From a virus (taxonomy: Duplodnaviria > Heunggongvirae > Uroviricota > Caudoviricetes): DNA of 34,518 nt. The notes below the pieces were generated by a model. The model saw only the letters and a list, made by a program, of their open reading frames with translations. It was not told the origin of the DNA and did no database searches. A program made the translations under genes and the position numbers. Positions 16,474-31,381 of the stretch are shown piece after piece. The DNA is taken from IMG/VR virus record IMGVR_UViG_3300029653_000081, positions 1 to 34,518 of that record, one strand, 5' to 3'. The first letter of the stretch is position 1. Each line of letters opens with the position of its first letter.

Positions 16474-17371
16474 GCACTGGAAAAATATTACTATTTATAA
16501 ACTTTCTCGTGAGGCGGATCTGACCGACTTAGAAGATAAAAAGAAAATGATCCTTTTCACGCCATGCGGTAGTCAGGATATGGCCAAGTTCGGTTTTGTA
16601 TCGCCATTTGGTGATAATTCCGAAGTTATCGCTATGCATGGAAATGGTTTTATCCTTGTTGAAGCAAAGCGCGAAACAAAAATTCTTCCCCCGCCGGTTA
16701 TCCAGCGAGCTATTCAAGAAAAAATTGAAAAACTTGAGCAAGAACAAGCGCGTAAACTGAAGAAAACAGAGAAGGACTCCCTGAAAGACGAAGTTCTGCA
16801 TTCTCTTCTGCCACGGGCTTTTTCAAAGTTTTCTGTTATCCAGGCGATCTACGACGGTTCAACTAAACGTATCTATATCAATGCCAGCGCGCGGCAGGCA
16901 GAGGATATGCTCGCGCTTATGCGTAAGTCTCTGGGTTCTCTTCCTGTTGTGCCACTAAGTGTTGAAAATCCCATTGAGTTAACGCTGACCGACTGGGTAC
17001 GTGATGCTAGTGCTCCACAGGGATTTCAAATGGGGGATGCGGCAGAACTTAAGGCAGTGCTTGAGGATGGCGGTATCGCCCGAGTGAAAAAGCAGGATTT
17101 GGGAAGCGATGAAATTTCCACACACCTGGAAGCTGGCAAGCTCGTCACTAAGTTGGCACTCGACTGGCAGAACCGCATTAAATTTACACTGGACCATAAC
17201 TTCAGCATTACCAGCGTCAATTTTGCGGATGAATTGCTTGAGCAGAACTCTGATATTGATAGTGAAGATGTTGCGCAGCGACTGGACGCAGATTTCTTCC
17301 TATTGACCAGTGAAATTTCGTGCCTGGTTGATGCTCTGGTAAATGCCCTTGGTGGAGAGGCTAAGCAGTGA
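16466..17371 (+). CDS. rdgC: RdgC-family recombination-associated protein (P1 hrdC-like)
   Basis: 301 aa from [15 protein letters not shown]; [38 protein letters not shown] and GSLPVVPLS closely resemble E. coli RdgC as recalled. Confidence 0.8.
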
Positions 17372-20250
17372 AAGAGCTGTGCTATGGATCTGTTTGCAGT
17401 GGAATTGAAGCCGCGAGTATTGCCTGGGAACCGTTGGGTATGCGTCCGGTTTGGTTTGCTGAAATCGAGCCTTTTCCATCGGCCGTTCTTGCGCTCCGCT
17501 GGCCCCATGTCGCCAACCTTGGCGACATGACAAAACTTGCCAAAAAAGTCTTGGCTGGGGAAATCGAATCCCCTGACGTGCTCGTCGGGGGAACACCATG
17601 TTTTACCGCGGGGCATATGGTTCTTTGTAAAAATGGTTATAAACCAATAGAAGATGTTTGCCCTGGCGATTACGTAGTCAGTCATCTCGGGCGGTTACAA
17701 CAAGTAAAAAGAGTTGGTTCAAAAATAGCTAATACGGGGTTACTTAATGCCGTTGGGCAGCCTTTAGGTATAAGAACAACCAATGACCATCCCTTCCTGG
17801 CTGTTCGGTGGAAAGCCCAAAACACCCGGAAAAATGGCACATATTTTAAGAGAGAGTTGTTGTCTGAACCGGAATGGCGAGCAGCATGTGATATGCCGGG
17901 ATATCAATGGTGCGCTCTAACTAATTTCAATATTGCATCTCCAGATATTTGTTCTCGGTTCTTGTCTGAAGAACAGGCTATGTATCTTGCGGGCGCTTAT
18001 GTTGGCGATGGATATATTAGGAGATGGAGAGGTAAATCTAAGAAGGCGGTTGTTTTTGGCATAAATTGCCAGAAATTGAGAAAGTTTCATTGCCGCATAC
18101 CAGAAAACATATTTTCCGTGGCAAGCGAAATCCGAGGGAGCATCAAAGTAACCTTGAATGATACGTGTTATGCCAATTGGCTTAATGAACATTTTGGCGA
18201 GTTAAGCCATGCTAAGCGTATCCCTGCATGGGTGATGTCGCATCCATTGCGTCATGTGTTTTTACAAGGCTATCTTGATACTGATGGGACACCAAGTGGT
18301 AAAGCGGGATTTAGAATTAATAGTGTTAGTCCTGCGCTTGCTTGGGGCGTTGCGGGGTTGTCACAGACTTGTGGTTATGTTTCTTCGGTCAGCTTTATTG
18401 AAGTTGAGCCCAAAAAAGTGATCGAGGATCGCGTGGTAAATCAACGGAATTATTATCAGGTAACAATCTGCCCGCAGAAATTGTCACGTAAATCAAGATT
18501 GGCTCATGGAATGCTTTTACGAACAGTCAAAGAGTTTAAATCGGTAGGCCTAGATACTGTATACAACATAGAAGTCGAAGGTGATCATTCCTATATCCTC
18601 AATGGTGCGGTGGTCCATAACTGTCAGGCATTCAGTATCGCGGGATTACGTGGTGGGCTTGATGATGAGCGTGGCGCGCTAACTTTAAAGTATGTGGAGC
18701 TTGCAAATGCAATTGACGACAAACGGGCTGAGTCATTTCTCAAACCAGCCGTTATTGTCTGGGAAAATGTCCCAGGAGTCTTGTCATCGGCAGATAACGC
18801 CTTCGGATGTTTCCTTGCCGGATTGGCTGGAGAAGATGCGCCATTTGAACCAGGTGATCGACCTGAATCAGGAAAAAGTAACGCGTTCTGGCGGTGGGAT
18901 GGCAAAACCGGTTGCCATGCTCCAAAGTGGCCGCAGTGTGGTTGTATTTATGGGCCGCAGCGAAAGGTGGCCTGGAGAATCCTTGATGCCCAATACTTCG
19001 GAGTGGCACAACGACGCCGACGCGTGTTTGTTGTCGCAAGTGCTCGAACAGACCTCGATCCCGCAACGGTACTTTTTGAGTTCGAAGGCGTGCGCCGGGA
19101 TATTGCGCCGAGCAGAGGCGAGGGGAAGGAAACTACCAGATATACTTCAAACATCGCTATCAGATCTTGCGATGATACAAACATAGTTGCCATGGCACAT
19201 GGGCAAGGAGGGGCTGAGATAAAAACCGATAATTCGGCACCAACTTTAACATGTAACCATGAAGCACCAATTGTATTGCTCGGCGACGGTAGAATACGCC
19301 GTCTTACCCCTGTCGAATGTGAAAGGCTGCAAGGTTTTCCTGATGGGCATACGTTGATCCCTACGGAAAAGCGTAAAAAAGTTTCTTCAGATGAACTGGC
19401 ATACCTTCGCAATAACTATCCTGATTTAAGCGAAGAAGAGGCCGCGATGCTTGCAGCTGACGGACCGCGTTACAAAGCGATCGGCAATAGTATGGCAATA
19501 CCAGTAATGCGCTGGATTGGCGATCGGATTACTAAGGCCGTATGTCGGCAGAAAGAAGGAAGTGAAACAAAAGAGCGAAAAGTTAAACCAGCGGCAGAAT
19601 TCGAACGGTCCATATTCAAATGGGCTGGTGGAAAATTTGGTGTTCTGGAACAAATCTTTCGCTATTTGCCAGAAGGGAAGCGCCTGATTGAACCTTTCGT
19701 TGGTGGCGGAGCTGTCTTCATGAATGCCGGATACCAGGAAAATCTGCTAAATGATGTGAATGCTGACCTGATTAACTTTTACAAGACTCTGCAACGCGAG
19801 GCGCATTCACTTATCACTCTGGCACATCGTTTCTTCCAGGACTACAACACACAGGAAGGATACCTGGCAGTACGGAATGCGTTTAACAAACAAGTCTATG
19901 ATGATTTACATCGCGCAGCGGCGTTTTTGTTCCTGAACCGACATTGTTTTAACGGATTGACGCGTTACAACCAGGCCGGTGAGTTCAATGTCGGTTATCC
20001 GGACATGAGTCTCGATAAAGCATGCGGTATTTATCACGGCATGCGAATTGAGCTTAAAGAACCAAATGGTAAAGCCCCGACGAAAGAGCAGATCGCCTGG
20101 ATGCGCAGGCTTAGAGAGGAAGGTTACTACGTCGTTCTTGCGTATGGTGCAGAACAAGCGATAACCGCCATCCTGGAATACATAAGCCTTAAAAAGGGTG
20201 AGGCTATTGAGCATGTATTGAACGGCGACAAGTGGTTGTATGCCACTTAA
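17368..20250 (+). CDS. dmt: Dmt-like multidomain DNA methyltransferase: C5-cytosine MTase interrupted by an intein, then a Dam-like domain and a nuclease-like tail
   Basis: GTG start coupled to the rdgC stop. C5-MTase motifs: [13 protein letters not shown] (split), [33 protein letters not shown]. Dam-like segment FKWAGGK...[10 protein letters not shown]...[23 protein letters not shown]. No DPPY-type motif anywhere in the protein. Confidence 0.85.
17599..18621 (+). other. Intein (341 aa) with LAGLIDADG homing-endonuclease motifs inside dmt
   Basis: Begins Cys (CFTAGHMVL), ends VVHN, followed by Cys+1; contains [11 protein letters not shown] and [10 protein letters not shown]. Excision would join GGTP to CQAFSIAG, restoring motif IV. 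Confidence 0.8.
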
Positions 20251-20316
20251 AATAATAAATTAATTAGTGCACATGTGCTCTTTGATATAGCGCACATTAA
20301 CATCGGGAGAATAATC

Positions 20317-20472
20317 GTGTCATTCAAGGTTAATTATGAATCGCTGGCATCGATCATGCCGCGTAATGAACAGGAAGCAGATGCTGTAGTGGACCCGGTA
20401 ATCGCTGAAATGAATGCTCGCCTGGAGGCTGAATTTGCAGCTGAGAATGAACATACCACCCAGGGCGACTAG
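20317..20472 (+). CDS. Small acidic hypothetical protein (about 51 aa)
   Basis: GTG preceded by GGGAGA; tracked ORF starts earlier at 20275. Weak evidence. Confidence 0.25.
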   Translation: MSFKVNYESLASIMPRNEQEADAVVDPVIAEMNARLEAEFAAENEHTTQGD

Positions 20473-21076
20473 GACTGTTTTTTGTGTCGGTAGCGGTCCG
20501 TCACTCACTCGTGAGGACTGTGCTGCTATAGAAAAAACTGGCTGTTCAATCATTGCGGTTAACAATTCCTGGCTGATGTTCGATGACATTTATGCCTTAT
20601 ACGCCGGTGATTTGTCATGGTGGAAGCAATACGGTTCCACCATACCGGGAGGGAGGTTCCGCAAAGTGACAGCCAACCTGGCGGCGGCGAAATCATTTTC
20701 GTTGGAGTACAGGCGATATTGTGGACCGGCGGAAGGGGTAAATAGCGGCGCGCAGGCTATCAGTCTGGCTGCTGAATCAGGGGCTGAAGTAGTGGTATTA
20801 GTCGGCTATGACTGTTCTCTGCAAAACGGCCTTCATTGGCATGGCGCGCACCCTCAAGCCCTACGGAATCCAACGCAGGTGTCTATTTCAAAATGGCAAC
20901 AGCAGTTCCTGGATACCCGCAAAAAACACGCAGATTTACATATTTTGAATGCAAGTAGGAGCAGTGCAATTCAATGTTTCCCAAGAATAAATTTAGAGGC
21001 AGTGATCGCGTTATTATCGTCGGCAGTGGCCCAAGCGCCGCAAACTTTGTTGCGCCGCGCGGAGTGCCGATTATAG
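20444..21076 (+). CDS. Rossmann-motif protein, paralog 1 (possibly DUF115/MptE-like transferase)
   Basis: N-terminal VFCVGSGPS, IIAVNNS, and NSGAQAISLAAESGAEVVVLVGYD; paralogous to the next gene. Family assignment is from memory. Confidence 0.5.
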   Translation, partial: RMNIPPRATRTVFCVGSGPSLTREDCAAIEKTGCSIIAVNNSWLMFDDIYALYAGDLSWWKQYGSTIPGGRFRKVTANLAAAKSFSLEYRRYCGPAEGVNSGAQAISLAAESGAEVVVLVGYDCSLQNGLHWHGAHPQALRNPTQVSISKWQQQFLDTRKKHADLHILNASRSSAIQCFPRINLEAVIALLSSAVAQAPQTLLRRAECRL

Positions 21077-25378: not shown

Positions 25379-28300
25379 CTATATTTTTCCGCCTACGCCT
25401 TTAAACTTCTCAATAAACGAGACGATTTTCTGGAAAACTGCCTGTTTTTTCGTTTTATATTGCGGATTCAACGGACTAAGTTTTGGTAATGTTTCGTTTA
25501 ATTCTGTGCCATTTTCGGTGGCGTATTCGCGTTTTAAAGACGTGCGAATATAGCGTTTTGCTGCATCTTCATTGAGATTTTCTTCTTTTATCAATGCTTC
25601 TGCTTCACGTTGCTGTTCGCGTTGAGCAAACGTAAAGAATGCCTCAATGATACTGGCTTTGTCTGGTAAATCATCCAGGTTCGTTTGCTGAATAAAATCG
25701 ACCACCAGGCCCTCTTTCGCCCGGTTCCCCAGGCTTGAACGAATTAAGCGTTTGACCTCTTCGATCATTTCGCCCTTGCCTTTATTTTGTCTGTTGTGTT
25801 CGAAAATCAGTCCAAGGATATAATCCAGGTTTATTTCCTGAGACTTCAGCAAATCGACCTCAAAAACCACGTCATCCCAGTCAGTGGTTGATTTCTCTTT
25901 TTTCTCAGCTTCTTTCTCACGGCGCTGCCAGTCGCGAATATCGTTATAGGCAGAACGATAATCCTGAATCTTGCGATCAGCAGGGAGACGAATTGTTTGC
26001 AATTCAGCGAACTTTTCATCATCCACATAATGTTCTGCTTTGAATTTTTCTACCGCAACAGGATCGCTAAGATCGATTTGTTGCAGGGCTTTTAGCGTGG
26101 CAAATTCATCATAGTTTTGCAGGATGTTCTCGGCACGCAGGTATTCGCCAAACAGTTTAACGAAGTCTTTCTTCTCTTTTTCACTTTCAATACTGGCAGG
26201 GTCAGGGAACCGTTGTTCCAGTTCTGAAACTACTGCCATAAAGCCGCGTTTGGCTTCACCGGTGGCAGCATCAGTAAAACCTTCCATATACTCTGCATAA
26301 CTCTTTTCTAACACCACATTTTTGGTATTTTTATCACCAAACAGCGTTATGGCATCAATGGTTGAGCGTTCCAGATCCCGAAAAGTGACAATGTTACCGA
26401 AGGTTTTAGTGGCGTTATAAATGCGGTTGGTGCGGGAAAATGCCTGCATCAGGCCGTGAAAACGCAAGTTTTTATCGACGAATAGCGTGTTCAATGTTGG
26501 AGCGTCGAAGCCGGTTAAAAACATCCCAACGACAATTAACAGATCGATATCCTGATTTTTAACCCGTTGGGCTAAATCGCGATAGTAGTTCTGAAAACCG
26601 TTACCGTCGGTGCTGAAGTTAGTTTTAAAATAGCTGTTATACTCACGAATTGCAGCGTCAAGAAACTCTTTAGCACTGCTGTCCATTGCGCTGGTATCAA
26701 AAGTTTCATCGGAAATTTCACCAATGGCATTTTGTTCTTCATTAGCGGCAAAGGAGAAGATTGTCGCAACACGCAGCGGTTTATAAGTTGCAGATTTATT
26801 AGCGGCTTCCTCTTGTAACCGTTTAAACGCCGCGTAATAGGCTTTTGCAGCATCCACGCTGCTCACTGCCAACATAGCATTAAAACCTTTTGCGCCAGGG
26901 AAAGTACGGTGCGTCTTCTGGCGGAAGTTATTCAGAATATATTGCGTAATTTCCTGTATACGCATGGGATGAAGAAACGCCTGCTGATTTTCAGCCGCAC
27001 TTAGTTTTTTCTCGTCAGTTTCTGTCTCTAAAGACTTAAACTGTGGCCGCACATCGTTGTAGTCCACCTTGAATTTGAGCACTTTTTCATCACGAATCGC
27101 ATCGGTAATTACATACGAATGCAATTCACGACCAAATACGCTGGCGGTCGTTTCTGAGCCTAAGGCGTTTTCCGGGAAAATAGGTGTGCCGGTAAAACCA
27201 AACTGATAATAGCGTTTGAATTTCTTCTTCAGGTTTTTCTGCGCTTCTCCAAACTGGCTGCGGTGGCATTCATCAAATATAAACACCACTTGCTGATTAT
27301 ATACAGGCAGGTCGCTTTCTGCTTTCATCAGGTTATTGAGTTTCTGAATAGTAGTGACGATAATTTTGTTATCGTCCTTATCCAGATTTCGTTTAAGGCC
27401 TGCGGTATTTTCCGAGCCGTTGACGCTGTCTGGCGAAAAACGCTGATATTCCTTCATGGTCTGGTAATCGAGGTCTTTCCTGTCGACCACAAAGAAGACT
27501 TTATCAATAAAGTCCAGCTCTGTTGCCAGACGCGCGGCTTTAAAGCTGGTGAGGGTTTTACCAGAACCGGTAGTGTGCCAGATATACCCACCGCTTTCCG
27601 GTTTTGACCAGTTCTTCGCTGTAAAGGAACTCTTAATTTTCCACAGAATGCGCTCGGTGGCGGCAATCTGGTACGGTCGCATCACCAGTAGCGTCTGACT
27701 ACTGTCAAAAACGCTGTAGTTCACCAGAACATTCAGCAGAGTATGTTTCTGGAAAAAGGTAGCGGTAAAGTCTTTGAGGTCTTTAATCAGCGTGTTGTCT
27801 GATTTCGCCCAATTCATGGTGAAGTCAAAACTGTTTTTATCGCGCTTTGTCGTGTTGGCAAAATAACGGGTATCGGTGCCGTTAGAAATGACAAACAGTT
27901 GCAGATACTTAAACAGGGAATTTTCGCTGTTAAAACTCTCTTTACTGTAACGATGTATCTGGTTGAAAGCCTCACGAATCGCCACCCCGCGTTTTTTTAG
28001 TTCGATTTGCACCAGCGGTAAACCATTAACCAGGATCGTGACGTCATAACGGTTAGCATGAGAACCCGTCTGTTCAAACTGCTGGATAATCTGCACCTTA
28101 TTGCGCATGAGATTCTTTTTATCTATCAAATAGATGTTCTCAAGTCGCCCGTCATCAAAAATAAAGTCGCAGATATAGTCGATATGGATTTTACGGGTTT
28201 TATCCAGAATACCATCGCTGGGGTTGTCCAGATACTGCTCCGTGAAGCGCCGCCACTCGCTGTCATTAAACATCACACCATTGAGGCTCTGAAGCTGTTC

Positions 28301-28495
28301 CCGAACATTGGACAGCATTGCCGACTGTGATTTTACGGAAATAAATTCATAACCCTGATTTTGCAGGTCCTGAATCAGTTCACGTTCCAGGTCCGATTCG
28401 CTCTGGTAGCTGTCGCCTGTTGGCTCAGCTTTGATGTACTTATCAAGAACGATAAAGTTATTGGATTCAGCAATGGTGTGTGTCTGATGAGTCAT
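25379..28495 (-). CDS. hsdR: Type I restriction enzyme R subunit HsdR (1038 aa)
   Basis: Helicase motifs TTGSGKT and [10 protein letters not shown]; size and position after hsdM-hsdS. Confidence 0.9.
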
Positions 28496-28616
28496 AGCGC
28501 ATCCTTTGTGCCGTCTGGCAAGGGCCGGAAGGGGGGTAATGGTGACTTCCGGCGCGTAAAAAATAGTCTATATACTGACCGGGTGTTAAGGTGGTCCGAT
28601 CGGTAGCAATGATCAA

Positions 28617-29822
28617 TTAATTACTGGCAGTTTCAGGTTTCGGGAAACTGAACAGTAAATCACGGTAGTATTCGTATTGTTTCTGGCGCAACTCGATTTC
28701 ACGCGGAAGACCTTCGGTGATGGAAGCTGCGATTGCATCAAACTTATCCAGAATATCCACAATACGCCCCTGTTCGTCTAAAGATTTTTGAGGGTGAGAT
28801 GGGTATGGAATAGGTACTCTGACTTGTTTCAGTGCATTAGCATTAAACTGTGGTTGCCCACCACCAGATACTAATTTATTAGCCTGTTCCCAAAAAAAAT
28901 CACTTTGTGCAAAGTGCCAGTAATATTTGGCATTAATAATCGTTTTATTTAGGTTCAACTTTATTAAAAAACCAGCGTATACTGCTGGATAATCTTCTTC
29001 AAAAATCATTGTTTTACCAAAGGTTGCCCCAGTTCTTGCCATGAGTAAATCATTTTTGTCTAAGGTATATTTCTCATTTTCCTCATTTAATTCAACGTAC
29101 ATTGGGTTTTCTTTCGATAGCTTCCCGTCTTTATTTATGTCAGTAATTCTCACGAAACGGGCATCTCCTGAATCCATGGCTTTGGCTGCATATCCATATG
29201 TAAAATCTCCAATTTCCCCCAAAGTCTTCCACTCAACCTCACCATCTTTAAAACTCAACAACTGGTCGCGATAGTAGTTGTACTGTTTTTTACGCATGTT
29301 AAGCTCAGCGGTAAGCTCAGCGGTAAGTGCAGTAAATTTATCCAGAATCCGAACGATTTCAGACTGGATGGCAAGGGATTTTTCCGGATTATCCGGGCAG
29401 GGGATGGGGATAGGGAAATTCTCTAAGGTTGATAGCACGATATATGTCATTGCCGCGCTATTTGTTCTTTCCTCGAGATATTTCTTCAGGCTATGGCTAA
29501 GCACAAAATACAAAAATCTAACACTTACATTTTCGTCGAAATTTGTCAGAACATAGGTGCGCTGATAAGCCTCAAACTTGCCGATGTAATGCTTCACCTC
29601 ACCAACATTCGCATTGCCTGCAATCAGCAATGCCTCTGTATCCCAGCGGAATTTATCAATTTTGCTTGTCTCTTTGGCTGTCGTGAAGAACATATACTCT
29701 CCATCATCAACAGCCGCATTCGCATTAAGCTTTCCTGTTTCAATTTTGCAAGTTTGCCCAAGTGTCTTCCACTCAACCTCAACCCCATCCAGCAATTTTT
29801 CCAGATAACTCATCTCGCTCAT
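28617..29822 (-). CDS. hsdS: Type I specificity subunit HsdS (401 aa)
   Basis: Two target-recognition halves each ending in a conserved repeat ([19 protein letters not shown] and [19 protein letters not shown]); 4-nt overlap with hsdM. Confidence 0.85.
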
Positions 29823-31381
29823 TTCTGCACCTCGCAGCCTTCAATTTCAGCCACAATTGCATCAATATCTTTACGCAACTGGTCGATTTTGCTGACCGTG
29901 GTTTTCAGCTCTGCATTCAGCTCACCGATATCGATAATTTCGCGGTTATCTTTCGCTTCCACATAGCTGCTCACCGACAGGTTATAGTCATTCGCGACAA
30001 CAGTCTCAAACGCAACAGATTTCGCCAGATGAGCAACATCTTCCTTGCTGGCAAATACCTGCATAATCTGTTCGATATGGGCATCGGTCAGGATATTGTT
30101 GTTGGTTTCTTTTTTGAACAGTTCGCTGGCATCAATAAACTGAACTTTGGTATCCGTTTTATGTTTAGACAGCACCAGAATGTTTACAGCAATAGTGGTG
30201 CCAAAGAACAGGTTCGGTGCCAGTGAAATCACGGTTTCGACATAGTTATTATCGACCAGATACTGACGGATTTTCTGCTCCGCGCCGCCACGGTAAAAAA
30301 TACCCGGGAAGCAGACAATCGCAGCACGACCTTTGGCCGAAAGATAGTTCAGCGCATGTAGTACAAACGCAAAGTCAGCTTTGGATTTGGGGGCCAGGAC
30401 GCCAGCCGGGGCAAAACGTTCATCGTTAATCAGCGTCGGGTCATCGCTGCCAATCCATTTCACCGAATACGGCGGGTTAGAAACGATGGCATCAAACGGT
30501 TTTTCATCTCTGAAGTGTGGCTCAGTCAGTGTATTACCCAGCTTGATATCAAACTTGTCGTAGTTGATGTTGTGCAAAAACATGTTCATACGTGCCAGGT
30601 TATAGGTTGTATGGTTGATTTCCTGACCAAAAAAGCCTTCTTCGATGATATGGTTATCAAACTGCTTTTTAGCCTGCAACAACAGTGAGCCGGAACCCGC
30701 TGCCGGGTCGTAGATTTTGTTAACGTTGGTCTGCCCGTGCATAGCCAGTTGTGCAATCAGCTTGGAGACGTGCTGCGGTGTAAAGAACTCACCGCCTGAC
30801 TTACCGGCATTTGCCGCATAGTTAGAAATCAGGAACTCATAGGCATCACCGAACAGGTCAATCTGATGTTCGTTGAAGTCACCAAGTTTTAACCCTTCAA
30901 CCCCTTTCAGAACCGCAGCCAGGCGGGCATTTTTATCTTTAACGGTGTTACCCAGGCGGTTACTGGTGGTATCGAAATCAGCAAACAAACCTTTGATGTC
31001 TGCTTCTGAAGGGTAGCCGTAAGCAGAACTTTCGATAGCAACGAAGATGCTGTTTAAATCTGCGTTCAGTCTGTCATTGGTATTTGCTTTCGCAGCTACG
31101 TTGCAGAAAAGCTGACTGGGGTAGATGAAGTAGCCTTTAGTTTTGATGGCATCGTCTTTAATGTCATCAGTAATTACGCTGTCATCCAGTTTCGCATAAC
31201 AGATACTGTCATCACCGGCTTCAATATAACTGGAAAAATTTTCGCTGATAAAACGGTAGAAAAGTGCGCCCAGAACGTATTGCTTAAAATCCCATCCATC
31301 GACCGAACCCCTGACATCGTTAGCAATTTGCCAGATTTGACGATGAAGCTCTGCACGTTGTTGAATACTTGTCATTTTCAT
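29819..31381 (-). CDS. hsdM: Type I N6-adenine methyltransferase HsdM (520 aa)
   Basis: NPPY motif ([10 protein letters not shown]) and AdoMet-binding [11 protein letters not shown]. Confidence 0.9.

What the first reader, a model, noticed from the sequence alone, without database searches (positions are those of the whole stretch)
17599..18621. Intein with LAGLIDADG endonuclease inserted at the catalytic PCQ motif of the Dmt cytosine methyltransferase
The 960-aa ORF reads ...LVGGTP / CFTAGHMVL ... GAVVHN / CQAFSIAG. The 341-aa insert starts with Cys, ends His-Asn, is followed by a +1 Cys, and carries two LAGLIDADG-type motifs plus a block-B-like TTNDHPF. Excision restores the PCQ motif, so the methyltransferase catalytic Cys would also be the splicing nucleophile. 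I do not recall an intein in P1 dmt, which makes this a candidate for recent homing.
Basis: seen in the sequence. Interest (0 to 1): 0.8.

Follow-up and report, generated by a model that had tools for sequence, protein, structure and literature searches.

The report
Homing intein in P1 Dmt methyltransferase
The 341-codon insert is a textbook self-splicing intein with its own homing endonuclease, sitting exactly at the catalytic Pro-Cys of the cytosine-methyltransferase half of phage P1's Dmt; it is real, common in P1-like plasmid prophages of E. coli and apparently still spreading, but it is an ordinary member of a known kind of element.

Summary
Window 17599-18621 encodes 341 aa (Cys1...His-Asn) inserted in frame between Pro77 and Cys78 (motif IV, GGTP|CQAFS) of a P1 Dmt homologue. 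Reference P1 Dmt lacks exactly this segment. Profile, sequence and predicted-fold evidence all identify a class-1 Hint splicing domain split by a two-motif LAGLIDADG endonuclease. All splicing and endonuclease catalytic residues are present.

It is not unique to this window. The same intein (at least 99% identical) is in 152 of 5,426 complete E. coli genomes, about 31% of P1-type dmt alleles. It is also in phage RCS47 and in a laboratory P1vir stock, always annotated only as "Dam family methyltransferase". Its DNA differs by at most 0.6% between copies, while adjacent extein DNA differs by up to 9%. Breakpoints lie within 6-24 nt of the intein, which fits recent homing.

Related inteins occupy the same Pro|Cys site in many bacterial and phage C5-methyltransferases. 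Inteins in actinophage C-5 methylases are already in the literature. I found no paper on the P1 case. Verdict: a new member of a known kind, of moderate-low interest.

In this window the dmt ORF is also fused to pmgM by an 11.1-kb deletion.

The parts
17368..17598 (+). N-extein: Dmt residues 1-77 (C5-MTase motif I region up to ...LVGGTP of motif IV).
   Evidence: Identical to OP279344 Dmt and 97% identical to reference P1 Dmt. Pfam DNA_methylase hit.
17599..18621 (+). Intein, 341 aa (38.3 kDa): a class-1 Hint splicing domain interrupted by a LAGLIDADG homing endonuclease domain.
   Evidence: GC is 43%, against 50-54% in the flanking extein.
17599..17637 (+). Intein block [14 protein letters not shown]. 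Cys1 is the first splicing nucleophile.
   Evidence: C1, F2, A4 and G5 are invariant in family alignment A2. Hint_2 hit over residues 1-49.
17767..17805 (+). Intein block [14 protein letters not shown], with the T61-x-x-H64 motif.
   Evidence: T61 and H64 are invariant in A2. Coordinates.
17980..18024 (+). LAGLIDADG motif 1 (block C), [15 protein letters not shown], with catalytic Asp137.
   Evidence: G132 and G138 invariant, D137 at least 90% conserved. The model shows a helix at 124-137.
18253..18297 (+). LAGLIDADG motif 2 (block E), [15 protein letters not shown], with catalytic Asp229.
   Evidence: G224 and G230 invariant, D229 at least 90% conserved. Pfam LAGLIDADG_3 over residues 221-284.
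18556..18621 (+). Intein blocks F and [23 protein letters not shown] (N323 at position F:4, H330, penultimate H340, terminal N341).
   Evidence: TIGR01443 intein_Cterm, 25.9 bits against a cutoff of 15.6. N323 and N341 are invariant in A2.
18622..18624 (+). +1 Cys codon (TGT). It is the second splicing nucleophile and, after ligation, the catalytic Cys of C5-MTase motif IV (P-C-Q).
   Evidence: It aligns with Cys78 of intein-free P1 Dmt. The spliced sequence reads ...[14 protein letters not shown]....
18622..19998 (+). C-extein of dmt origin: the rest of the C5-MTase ([33 protein letters not shown]) and the N-terminal half of the Dam domain, ending at ...EFNVGY before the DPPY motif.
   Evidence: 100% identical to OP279344 up to window 19998.
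19993..19998 (+). Deletion junction: 6-bp microhomology GGTTAT joining dmt to pmgM. The deletion is 11.1 kb relative to OP279344.
   Evidence: blastn of window 19800-20600 against OP279344 64000-78500.
19999..20250 (+). 3' part of pmgM (C-terminus of a VRR-NUC protein), fused in frame, plus the stop codon. It is not part of Dmt.
   Evidence: Match to PmgM of phi456 and OP279344. Pfam VRR_NUC over aa 862-928.

Best explanation
Window 17599-18621 is a canonical class-1 intein that carries a LAGLIDADG homing endonuclease. It is inserted in frame between Pro77 and Cys78 of the motif IV Pro-Cys dipeptide in the C5-cytosine-methyltransferase domain of a P1-type Dmt.

Inferred mechanism:
1. The gene is translated as a 107-kDa precursor in which the methyltransferase active-site loop is split.
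2. Cys1 carries out an N-S acyl shift at the Pro77-Cys1 bond.
3. The thiol of the +1 Cys (the future catalytic Cys of the methyltransferase) takes over the N-extein by transthioesterification.
4. Asn341, assisted by His340, cyclises and releases the 38-kDa intein.
5. An S-N shift leaves a native ...GGTP-CQAFS... peptide bond. This gives a 69-kDa product here, or the 672/754-aa Dmt in intact alleles.
6. The freed intein, or the precursor, acts as a site-specific endonuclease on intein-less dmt alleles that meet it in the same cell, for example in P1 co-infection or with co-resident P1-like plasmids.
7. Repair from the intein-carrying copy inserts the intein, with very short co-conversion tracts.

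What is shown: the anatomy, the family membership, the insertion point, the prevalence, and the population signature of mobility. What is inferred: that splicing and DNA cleavage actually occur.
For: Insertion point. There is a clean 341-aa gap relative to reference P1 Dmt, exactly at TP|CQ.

Family identity:
- Pfam LAGLIDADG_3 1.7e-8, Hint_2 2.3e-6, Intein_splicing 1.6e-4. All 10 family members hit Hint_2 and LAGLIDADG_3.
- TIGR01443 intein_Cterm is above its cutoff.
- Family profile against PDB: PI-SceI and PI-PkoII at 3.3e-13, plus many mini-inteins.
- The AlphaFold model has pLDDT 91.5 and pTM 0.89. Its best Foldseek matches are PI-SceI (2.9e-17), the TliVMA intein (TMq 0.64), PI-PfuI and PI-PkoII, then the free LAGLIDADG enzymes I-DmoI and I-SceI.

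Catalytic residues. C1, T61, H64, N341 and the +1 Cys are invariant, and D137 and D229 are nearly invariant, in relatives down to 23% identity.

Intactness. I recovered 48 copies in 15 DNA alleles, none broken. There are 15 synonymous and 15 nonsynonymous variant codons, none at a catalytic residue.

Mobility:
- The intein is at least 99% identical in all 153 E. coli records, and about 31% of dmt alleles carry it (152 of 493 genomes).
- In L012 and L100 the N-extein differs at 21 of 231 nt, against 6 of 1023 nt in the intein (Fisher p = 1.8e-11).
- In L008 the C-extein differs at 14 of 490 nt, against 2 of 1023 nt in the intein (p = 7e-6).
- Differences start 6 nt upstream and 24 nt downstream of the intein.
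- All 51 intein-plus junctions read CCA at the -1 codon. All 31 intein-less junctions read CCT or CCG.
- The intein occurs with both TRD types, as do intein-less alleles.

Same site elsewhere. 114 of 148 full-length related inteins in other genomes and viral contigs sit at a P(D/E)|C-x-x-x-S junction of motif IV type. A 141-aa mini-intein of the same lineage occupies the same site.

Viability. A laboratory P1vir stock (OP279344) carries the intein-containing dmt.
Against: - No experiment exists: neither splicing nor cleavage was observed.
- The -1 residue is Pro, which is unfavourable for N-terminal cleavage in some engineered inteins (my own knowledge of Sce VMA1 vectors). It is, however, conserved throughout this family.
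- Block F position 4 is Asn in every member rather than the common Asp.
- Pfam Intein_splicing is below its gathering score and Hint_2 only just reaches it.
- The mosaic pattern could in principle come from ordinary homologous recombination among P1-like plasmids rather than endonuclease-driven homing.
- Dmt function is dispensable in dam+ hosts (PMC11437467, citing earlier work). A non-splicing insert would therefore not be lethal.
- In this window the host ORF is already damaged in its Dam half.
Confidence: 0.85

Rival explanations
1. The insert is a splicing-competent intein whose endonuclease is no longer active. Its patchy distribution and mosaic flanks then result from ordinary RecA- or phage-mediated homologous recombination among co-resident P1-like plasmids, not from homing.
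For: P1-like elements are highly mosaic: TRD swaps, IS insertions and deletions were seen. Some relatives show endonuclease decay. P0009 has D-to-N in motif 2, and P0023 is a mini-intein without the endonuclease domain. No cleavage data exist.
Against: Both catalytic Asp residues are intact, and no copy is broken among 48. Breakpoints hug the intein within 6-24 nt on both sides in independent backgrounds. A single linked nucleotide (CCA against CCT/CCG) is fixed between intein-plus and intein-minus alleles. That pattern is what break-initiated gene conversion predicts. It is unlikely for random crossovers in flanks that are only 1-9% divergent.
Confidence: 0.12
2. The insert is a dead or domesticated intein-derived domain that is never excised. 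The C5-methyltransferase half of Dmt is then permanently inactivated, which is tolerated because it is dispensable, or the insert serves another role such as DNA binding.
For: C5 methylation by P1 Dmt is described only as 'perhaps' in the reference annotation. Dmt is dispensable in dam+ hosts (PMC11437467). Pro at -1 and Asn at F:4 are not the most common choices.
Against: Every residue needed for the four splicing steps is invariant across relatives down to 23% identity, and across 15 P1-type alleles. The extein C5-MTase motifs remain intact on both sides. The same site is occupied in more than 100 diverse C5-MTases, including a mini-intein, which is the typical intein life cycle. There is mild purifying selection, with a 15:15 synonymous to nonsynonymous ratio.
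Confidence: 0.03
3. The insert is a free-standing homing endonuclease gene, or a group I intron ORF, that merely happens to be in frame.
For: One RefSeq record with a broken dmt annotates the segment as 'LAGLIDADG family homing endonuclease' (H61).
Against: There are no stop codons, and no start codon or ribosome-binding requirement: the segment is in frame on both sides. Hint N- and C-terminal splicing blocks flank the endonuclease. The boundaries are exactly Cys1 and His-Asn/Cys+1.
Confidence: 0.005

Closest known systems
PI-SceI (Saccharomyces cerevisiae VMA1 intein) and the archaeal VMA, PI-PfuI and PI-PkoII inteins
   Same: The architecture is the same: a Hint splicing domain split by a two-motif LAGLIDADG endonuclease, with Cys1, TxxH, a terminal His-Asn and a +1 Cys. 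These are the best sequence-profile and fold matches.
   Different: Sequence identity is only 11-17%. The host proteins differ (ATPase, RNR and polymerase, against a DNA C5-methyltransferase). The intein here is shorter (341 aa against 454-537). Position F:4 is Asn.
Inteins of actinobacteriophage DNA methylases (Kelley et al. 2016, PMC5050341; Gosselin et al. 2023, PMC9957025; bioRxiv 10.1101/2025.01.02.630785, which lists N-6/N-4 and C-5 methylases as intein hosts)
   Same: These are phage-borne inteins with LAGLIDADG endonucleases inside DNA methyltransferase genes. They have a patchy distribution and evidence of transfer between diverged alleles.
   Different: They are in phages of Actinobacteria, and the characterised cases are N6/N4 methylases. 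This one is in the C5 half of the bifunctional Dmt of an enterobacterial plasmid prophage, P1, and sits exactly on the catalytic Pro-Cys. I found no paper describing it.
Undescribed database relatives at the same Pro|Cys site, e.g. Mannheimia haemolytica 'Hint domain-containing protein' (P0011, 47% identity), Metarhizobium album (L013, 48%), IMG/VR contigs L101-L103 (52-55%), and more distant ones in Clostridia, Actinomycetes, Alpha/Betaproteobacteria
   Same: The insertion site is the same (GGTP|C...HN|CQxFS, or SPD/E|C...HN|C[KT]xxS), with the same block sequences and length class.
   Different: They are 23-55% identical. The exteins are other C5-MTases, 30-75% identical to Dmt. Some are decayed (P0009: D-to-N and HN-to-NN) or reduced to a 141-aa mini-intein (P0023).

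Membership tests
Intein (class 1 protein-splicing element, Hint fold) | An in-frame insertion in a conserved host protein, absent from close orthologues, with precise boundaries that restore the host sequence. | tested here: met
   A 341-aa gap exactly at TP|CQ relative to reference P1 Dmt. 337 E. coli genomes carry the uninterrupted allele.
Intein (class 1 protein-splicing element, Hint fold) | An N-terminal nucleophile (Cys/Ser1) and the block B T-x-x-H motif. | tested here: met
   C1, T61 and H64 are invariant in alignment A2.
Intein (class 1 protein-splicing element, Hint fold) | A C-terminal (His)-Asn followed by a +1 Cys/Ser/Thr. | tested here: met
   H340-N341|C. TIGR01443 intein_Cterm scores 25.9 bits against a cutoff of 15.6.
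Intein (class 1 protein-splicing element, Hint fold) | The Hint fold. | tested here: met
   Hint_2 hit in all 10 family members. PDB profile hits to PI-SceI and mini-inteins. The AF2 model (pLDDT 91.5) matches PI-SceI, TliVMA and PI-PfuI. This is a prediction, not a solved structure.
Intein (class 1 protein-splicing element, Hint fold) | Autocatalytic excision with ligation of the exteins. | not testable with these tools
   It needs expression followed by western blot or mass spectrometry for the 69-kDa ligated product and the 38-kDa intein.
LAGLIDADG (DOD) homing endonuclease | Two LAGLIDADG motifs, each ending in a catalytic acidic residue, within one chain. | tested here: met
   [10 protein letters not shown]137G and FLQGYLDTD229G. 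Pfam LAGLIDADG_3 at 1.7e-8. Fold matches to I-DmoI and I-SceI.
LAGLIDADG (DOD) homing endonuclease | Site-specific cleavage of the insert-free allele. | not testable with these tools
   It needs an in vitro cleavage assay on the intein-less dmt junction.
LAGLIDADG (DOD) homing endonuclease | The population signature of homing: a sporadic distribution among near-identical hosts, with the element more uniform than its flanks. | tested here: met
   About 31% of alleles carry it. The intein is at most 0.6% divergent against flanks up to 9% divergent, Fisher p = 1.8e-11. The linked nucleotide at -1 is fixed. This evidence is indirect.
C5 cytosine DNA methyltransferase (PF00145), as host protein | The motif IV Pro-Cys catalytic dipeptide, plus motifs I, VI, VIII, IX and X. 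| tested here: met
   The spliced sequence reads [31 protein letters not shown] and GNSMAIPV are present. TIGR00675 dcm scores 101.6 bits against a cutoff of 100.65. Enzymatic activity was not tested.
Bacterial intein-like (BIL) domain (considered and rejected) | A Hint domain without an endonuclease, located in variable regions of non-conserved proteins, usually without a conserved +1 nucleophile. | tested here: not met
   An endonuclease domain is present, the insertion is in the most conserved motif of a conserved enzyme, and the +1 Cys is conserved.

The most novel reading that the evidence does not exclude
The intein may be more than a passenger. Two readings are not excluded.

1. Because Cys1 and the catalytic +1 Cys are adjacent, splicing could be conditional, for example blocked by a redox-sensitive Cys1-Cys+1 disulfide or dependent on DNA. 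It would then act as a post-translational switch that delays or gates C5 methylation by Dmt during P1 development.
2. The endonuclease may work as a competition weapon. It would cut the dmt gene of intein-less P1-like plasmids or superinfecting phages in the same cell, biasing inheritance of linked markers or eliminating an incompatible rival replicon.

Either reading would make a native, genetically tractable E. coli/P1 system for studying intein function in its natural host.
Probability: 0.12. Interest if true: 0.6.

Novelty: new member of a known kind. Interest (0 to 1): 0.35.

Why it matters
P1 is one of the most used phages in bacterial genetics, and E. coli K-12 is the standard intein-free host for splicing assays (the latter is my own knowledge). 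This work shows that about a third of natural P1-type dmt alleles carry an apparently active homing intein, and so does at least one laboratory P1vir stock. The intein splits the catalytic Pro-Cys of the methyltransferase.

That gives a native, tractable system for three questions: intein splicing at an active-site cysteine, homing between plasmid prophages, and whether Dmt's cytosine-methylation activity depends on splicing.

It also corrects annotation. Hundreds of GenBank and RefSeq proteins of 1,013 or 1,095 aa named only "Dam family methyltransferase" are intein precursors. Length variation in dmt among P1-like plasmids is largely presence or absence of this intein plus target-recognition-domain swaps.

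It does not reveal a new kind of element or mechanism.

Tried and rejected
- Literature. Eight full-text searches combined intein with P1, Dmt, RCS47, punavirus, phage-plasmid, cytosine methyltransferase and DNA methylase. I also read candidate papers. None describes this intein. Most co-occurrences were intein purification tags. One search failed because a term was too short.
- Intein-less junction scans. I replaced them with a protein-seeded locus search and a local count.
- Diversity calculation. A first ungapped calculation gave an absurd pi of 0.12 upstream, because one locus had an indel. I discarded it and redid the analysis on a MAFFT alignment.
- Right end of the deletion. A first exact-match attempt to find it failed because of SNPs. 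blastn solved it.
- Rejected readings: a BIL domain, a free-standing homing endonuclease or intron ORF, and a class-3 intein (Cys1 is present).
- ORFs on the opposite strand inside the segment (17917..18192, 91 aa; 17026..17685) have no support and are treated as chance.
Full report
**Observation**

The window is a P1-like (Punavirus) element. Positions 142-25000 are collinear with P1vir record OP279344 at 99.0% identity.

The ORF at 17368..20250 (+) is 960 aa. Positions 17599-18621 translate without a stop into 341 aa, beginning CFTAGHMVL and ending GAVVHN. The residues before it are ...DVLVGGTP. The codon after it is TGT (Cys), followed by QAFSIAG.

I aligned four proteins: the window ORF, Dmt of OP279344 (1,013 aa), Dmt of phage RCS47 (1,095 aa) and reference P1 Dmt (754 aa). 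The reference protein lacks exactly these 341 residues, and the gap lies between GTP and CQAFS (alignment A1). Removing the segment restores the C5-methyltransferase motif IV, GGTPCQAFS.

**What it is**

Sequence profiles agree on an intein with a LAGLIDADG endonuclease:
- Pfam gives LAGLIDADG_3 (1.7e-8), Hint_2 (2.3e-6, just at its gathering score) and Intein_splicing (1.6e-4, below its gathering score).
- NCBIfam TIGR01443, the intein C-terminal splicing region, scores 25.9 bits against a cutoff of 15.6.
- A profile built from the window intein and nine relatives (alignment A2) finds PI-SceI and PI-PkoII in the PDB sequence set at E = 3.3e-13. It also finds many mini-inteins: gp41-1, DnaX, RecA, DnaB and Prp8.
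- All ten members of A2 hit Hint_2 and LAGLIDADG_3, and nine hit Intein_splicing.

The predicted fold agrees. The AlphaFold2 model built on A2 is confident (mean pLDDT 91.5, pTM 0.89). Its best Foldseek matches among solved structures are PI-SceI (2.9e-17), the TliVMA and PhoVMA inteins (TMq up to 0.64), PI-PfuI and PI-PkoII. The free LAGLIDADG enzymes I-DmoI and I-SceI follow.

The residues that define a class-1 intein are conserved in relatives down to 23% identity:
- Cys1, Thr61 and His64 (block B), the terminal Asn341 and the +1 Cys are invariant.
- The two LAGLIDADG catalytic aspartates, D137 and D229, are conserved in at least 90% of sequences.

One mild peculiarity is that block F position 4 is Asn in every member, rather than the more usual Asp.

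The intein has a lower GC content (43%) than the flanking extein (50-54%).

**Mechanism (inferred from established intein and C5-MTase chemistry)**

- The precursor (107 kDa here) has its methyltransferase active-site loop split between Pro and Cys.
- Cys1 forms a thioester at the Pro77-Cys1 bond.
- The +1 Cys thiol attacks it, Asn341 cyclises, and an S-N shift yields the native Pro-Cys bond.
- The products are a 38.3-kDa intein and a 68.9-kDa ligated protein in this window.
- The +1 Cys is the residue that C5-methyltransferases use to attack C6 of cytosine.
- None of this was observed experimentally.

**Distribution**

- The intein DNA occurs at 99% identity or more in 153 records from 152 of 5,426 complete E. 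coli genomes. Of these places, 148 are on plasmids and 5 on chromosomes.
- It occurs in 133 PLSDB plasmids from E. coli, Salmonella and Shigella.
- It occurs in phages RCS47 and vB_EcoM-Ro157c2YLVW, and in OP279344.
- OP279344 is the genome of a laboratory P1vir stock used in Argonaute work (bioRxiv 10.1101/2022.09.09.507302). A plaque-forming P1 therefore carries it.
- A spliced-extein query finds dmt in 493 genomes, and 337 of them have the uninterrupted allele. About 31% of alleles are therefore intein-positive.
- Reference P1, P7, SJ46 and JL22 lack the intein.
- The proteins are named only "Dam family site-specific DNA-(adenine-N6)-methyltransferase"; fragments are named "Hint domain-containing protein" or "LAGLIDADG family homing endonuclease".

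**Evidence for mobility**

I compared intein-plus and intein-minus loci base by base and on a MAFFT alignment of 14 distinct intein-plus haplotypes.

- The intein differs by 0-6 of 1,023 nt between copies.
- The adjacent 231-nt N-extein differs by up to 21 nt (L012 and L100: 9.1% against 0.6%, Fisher p = 1.8e-11).
- The first 490 nt of the C-extein differ by up to 14 nt (L008: 2.9% against 0.2%, p = 7e-6).
- In L012 the N-extein differences run up to 6 nt from the intein.
- In L008 the C-extein becomes identical to the intein-less P1-reference type from 24 nt after the intein.
All 31 intein-less junctions read CCT or CCG. These loci are partly redundant.
- The intein is found with both kinds of target-recognition domain, as are intein-less alleles.
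- Among 48 intein copies (15 DNA alleles), none is interrupted. Variant codons are 15 synonymous and 15 nonsynonymous, and none is at a catalytic residue. This fits mild purifying selection or a recent spread.

Together this is the classic picture of an intein that has recently invaded several diverged alleles by break-induced gene conversion with very short co-conversion tracts. It does not formally exclude ordinary recombination.

**The wider family**

- The protein search found relatives at 47-52% identity in other DNA_methylase (PF00145) proteins, for example in Mannheimia haemolytica. It found relatives at 29-32% identity in Actinomycetes and Alphaproteobacteria.
- Locus searches returned 160 related loci. 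Of 148 with a full-length match, 114 sit at a P(D/E)|C-x-x-x-S junction of motif IV type, 40 in genomes and 74 in viral contigs.
- The remainder are more distant inteins in other proteins.
- Intein and extein divergence are broadly correlated, but not always. L111 has an intein 45% identical in an extein only about 35% identical.
- A 141-aa mini-intein of the same lineage occupies the same site (P0023).
- One close relative shows D-to-N in the second LAGLIDADG motif and HN-to-NN at the C-terminus (P0009).
- These are the expected stages of the intein invasion, decay and loss cycle.

**Comparison with the literature**

- Inteins in phage DNA methylases are known. They are described for N6/N4 methylases of mycobacteriophages (PMC5050341) and for an actinophage methylase family (PMC9957025).
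- A 2025 survey lists both N-6/N-4 and C-5 methylases among actinophage intein hosts (bioRxiv 10.1101/2025.01.02.630785).
- I found no paper mentioning an intein in P1 dmt or in P1-like phage-plasmids.
- The library does not cover subscription journals, so absence is not proof.

**Context in this window**

- The host ORF is not an intact Dmt. Identity to OP279344 dmt is 100% up to window 19998 (...EFNVGY, before the Dam DPPY motif).
- The sequence then continues in the 3' part of pmgM across a 6-bp microhomology, GGTTAT. This is an 11.1-kb deletion.
- The deletion removes two tRNAs, tciABC, ban, dbn and tail/baseplate genes 5, 6, 24, 7, 25 and 26.
- The exact 960-aa fusion protein occurs on at least 11 contigs from independent sequencing runs. 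It is therefore a real lineage of a defective element, not an assembly artefact.
- The C5-methyltransferase half and the intein are unaffected.

**Verdict**

The finding is real and correctly interpreted. It is a new, undescribed member of a well-known kind of element, at an insertion site that databases show to be widely used.

Its interest is moderate-low. It is useful as a native E. coli/P1 intein system and as an annotation correction. It is not surprising in mechanism.

Noticed in passing
window 19993-20250: The dmt ORF is fused in frame to the 3' end of pmgM (VRR-NUC) by an 11.1-kb deletion across a 6-bp microhomology, GGTTAT. The deletion removes tRNAs, tciABC, ban, dbn and tail/baseplate genes, so the element is a defective prophage or plasmid and the Dam half of Dmt lacks its DPPY motif. 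The identical 960-aa fusion protein is on at least 11 contigs from independent runs.
   Followed up: yes
window 25379-31381 (- strand): A complete type I restriction-modification system: hsdR (1,038 aa, EcoR124_C/HSDR_N/SWI2_SNF2), hsdS (401 aa, Methylase_S) and hsdM (520 aa, N6_Mtase). It lies in a region where reference P1 has morphogenesis and other genes.
   Followed up: partly
window about 19110-19290 (Dmt ORF aa about 583-640); L002/L003 for comparison: The target-recognition region of the C5-methyltransferase comes in two unrelated versions. The short version is in the window and OP279344; the long version is in reference P1 and RCS47. Each version occurs with and without the intein, so methylation specificity probably differs between P1-like elements.
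   Followed up: partly
L003 (NC_005856) dmt codon 74: Reference P1 Dmt reads LVWGTPCQ where all other sampled alleles read LVGGTPCQ. This G-to-W change in motif IV was seen in 1 of 31 intein-less junctions. It might impair C5 methylation in the reference lab strain, and it also alters the putative homing site.
   Followed up: no
L052 (Sphingopyxis sp. GW247-27LB) and L113 (IMG/VR contig): A related intein at the same site has Ser instead of Cys at +1 (…VVHN|SQGFSLAGLRGG). After splicing, the methyltransferase would carry Pro-Ser instead of the catalytic Pro-Cys.
   Followed up: no
P0011; L107 and L109 (Mannheimia haemolytica-type): The intein (47-48% identity) is intact, but the C-extein reads CQSDKGGTVK... 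and ends after about 20 aa. An apparently intact intein therefore sits in a truncated methyltransferase gene.
   Followed up: no
P0023 (306-aa protein, residues 115-255) and P0009: P0023 carries a 141-aa mini-intein of the same lineage at the same GGTP|CQ site. P0009 carries a full-length relative with D-to-N in LAGLIDADG motif 2 and His-to-Asn at the penultimate position. These are decay stages of the same intein family.
   Followed up: partly
L006 (NZ_CP060930), L004 (NZ_CP116049), L007/L008: Other P1-like plasmids show independent damage or cargo around dmt: ISVsa5 in rdgC with a frameshifted dmt, an IS26-associated deletion bringing dmt remnants next to pmgL/pmgM, and a TnpB (InsQ) gene immediately downstream of dmt.
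   Followed up: no
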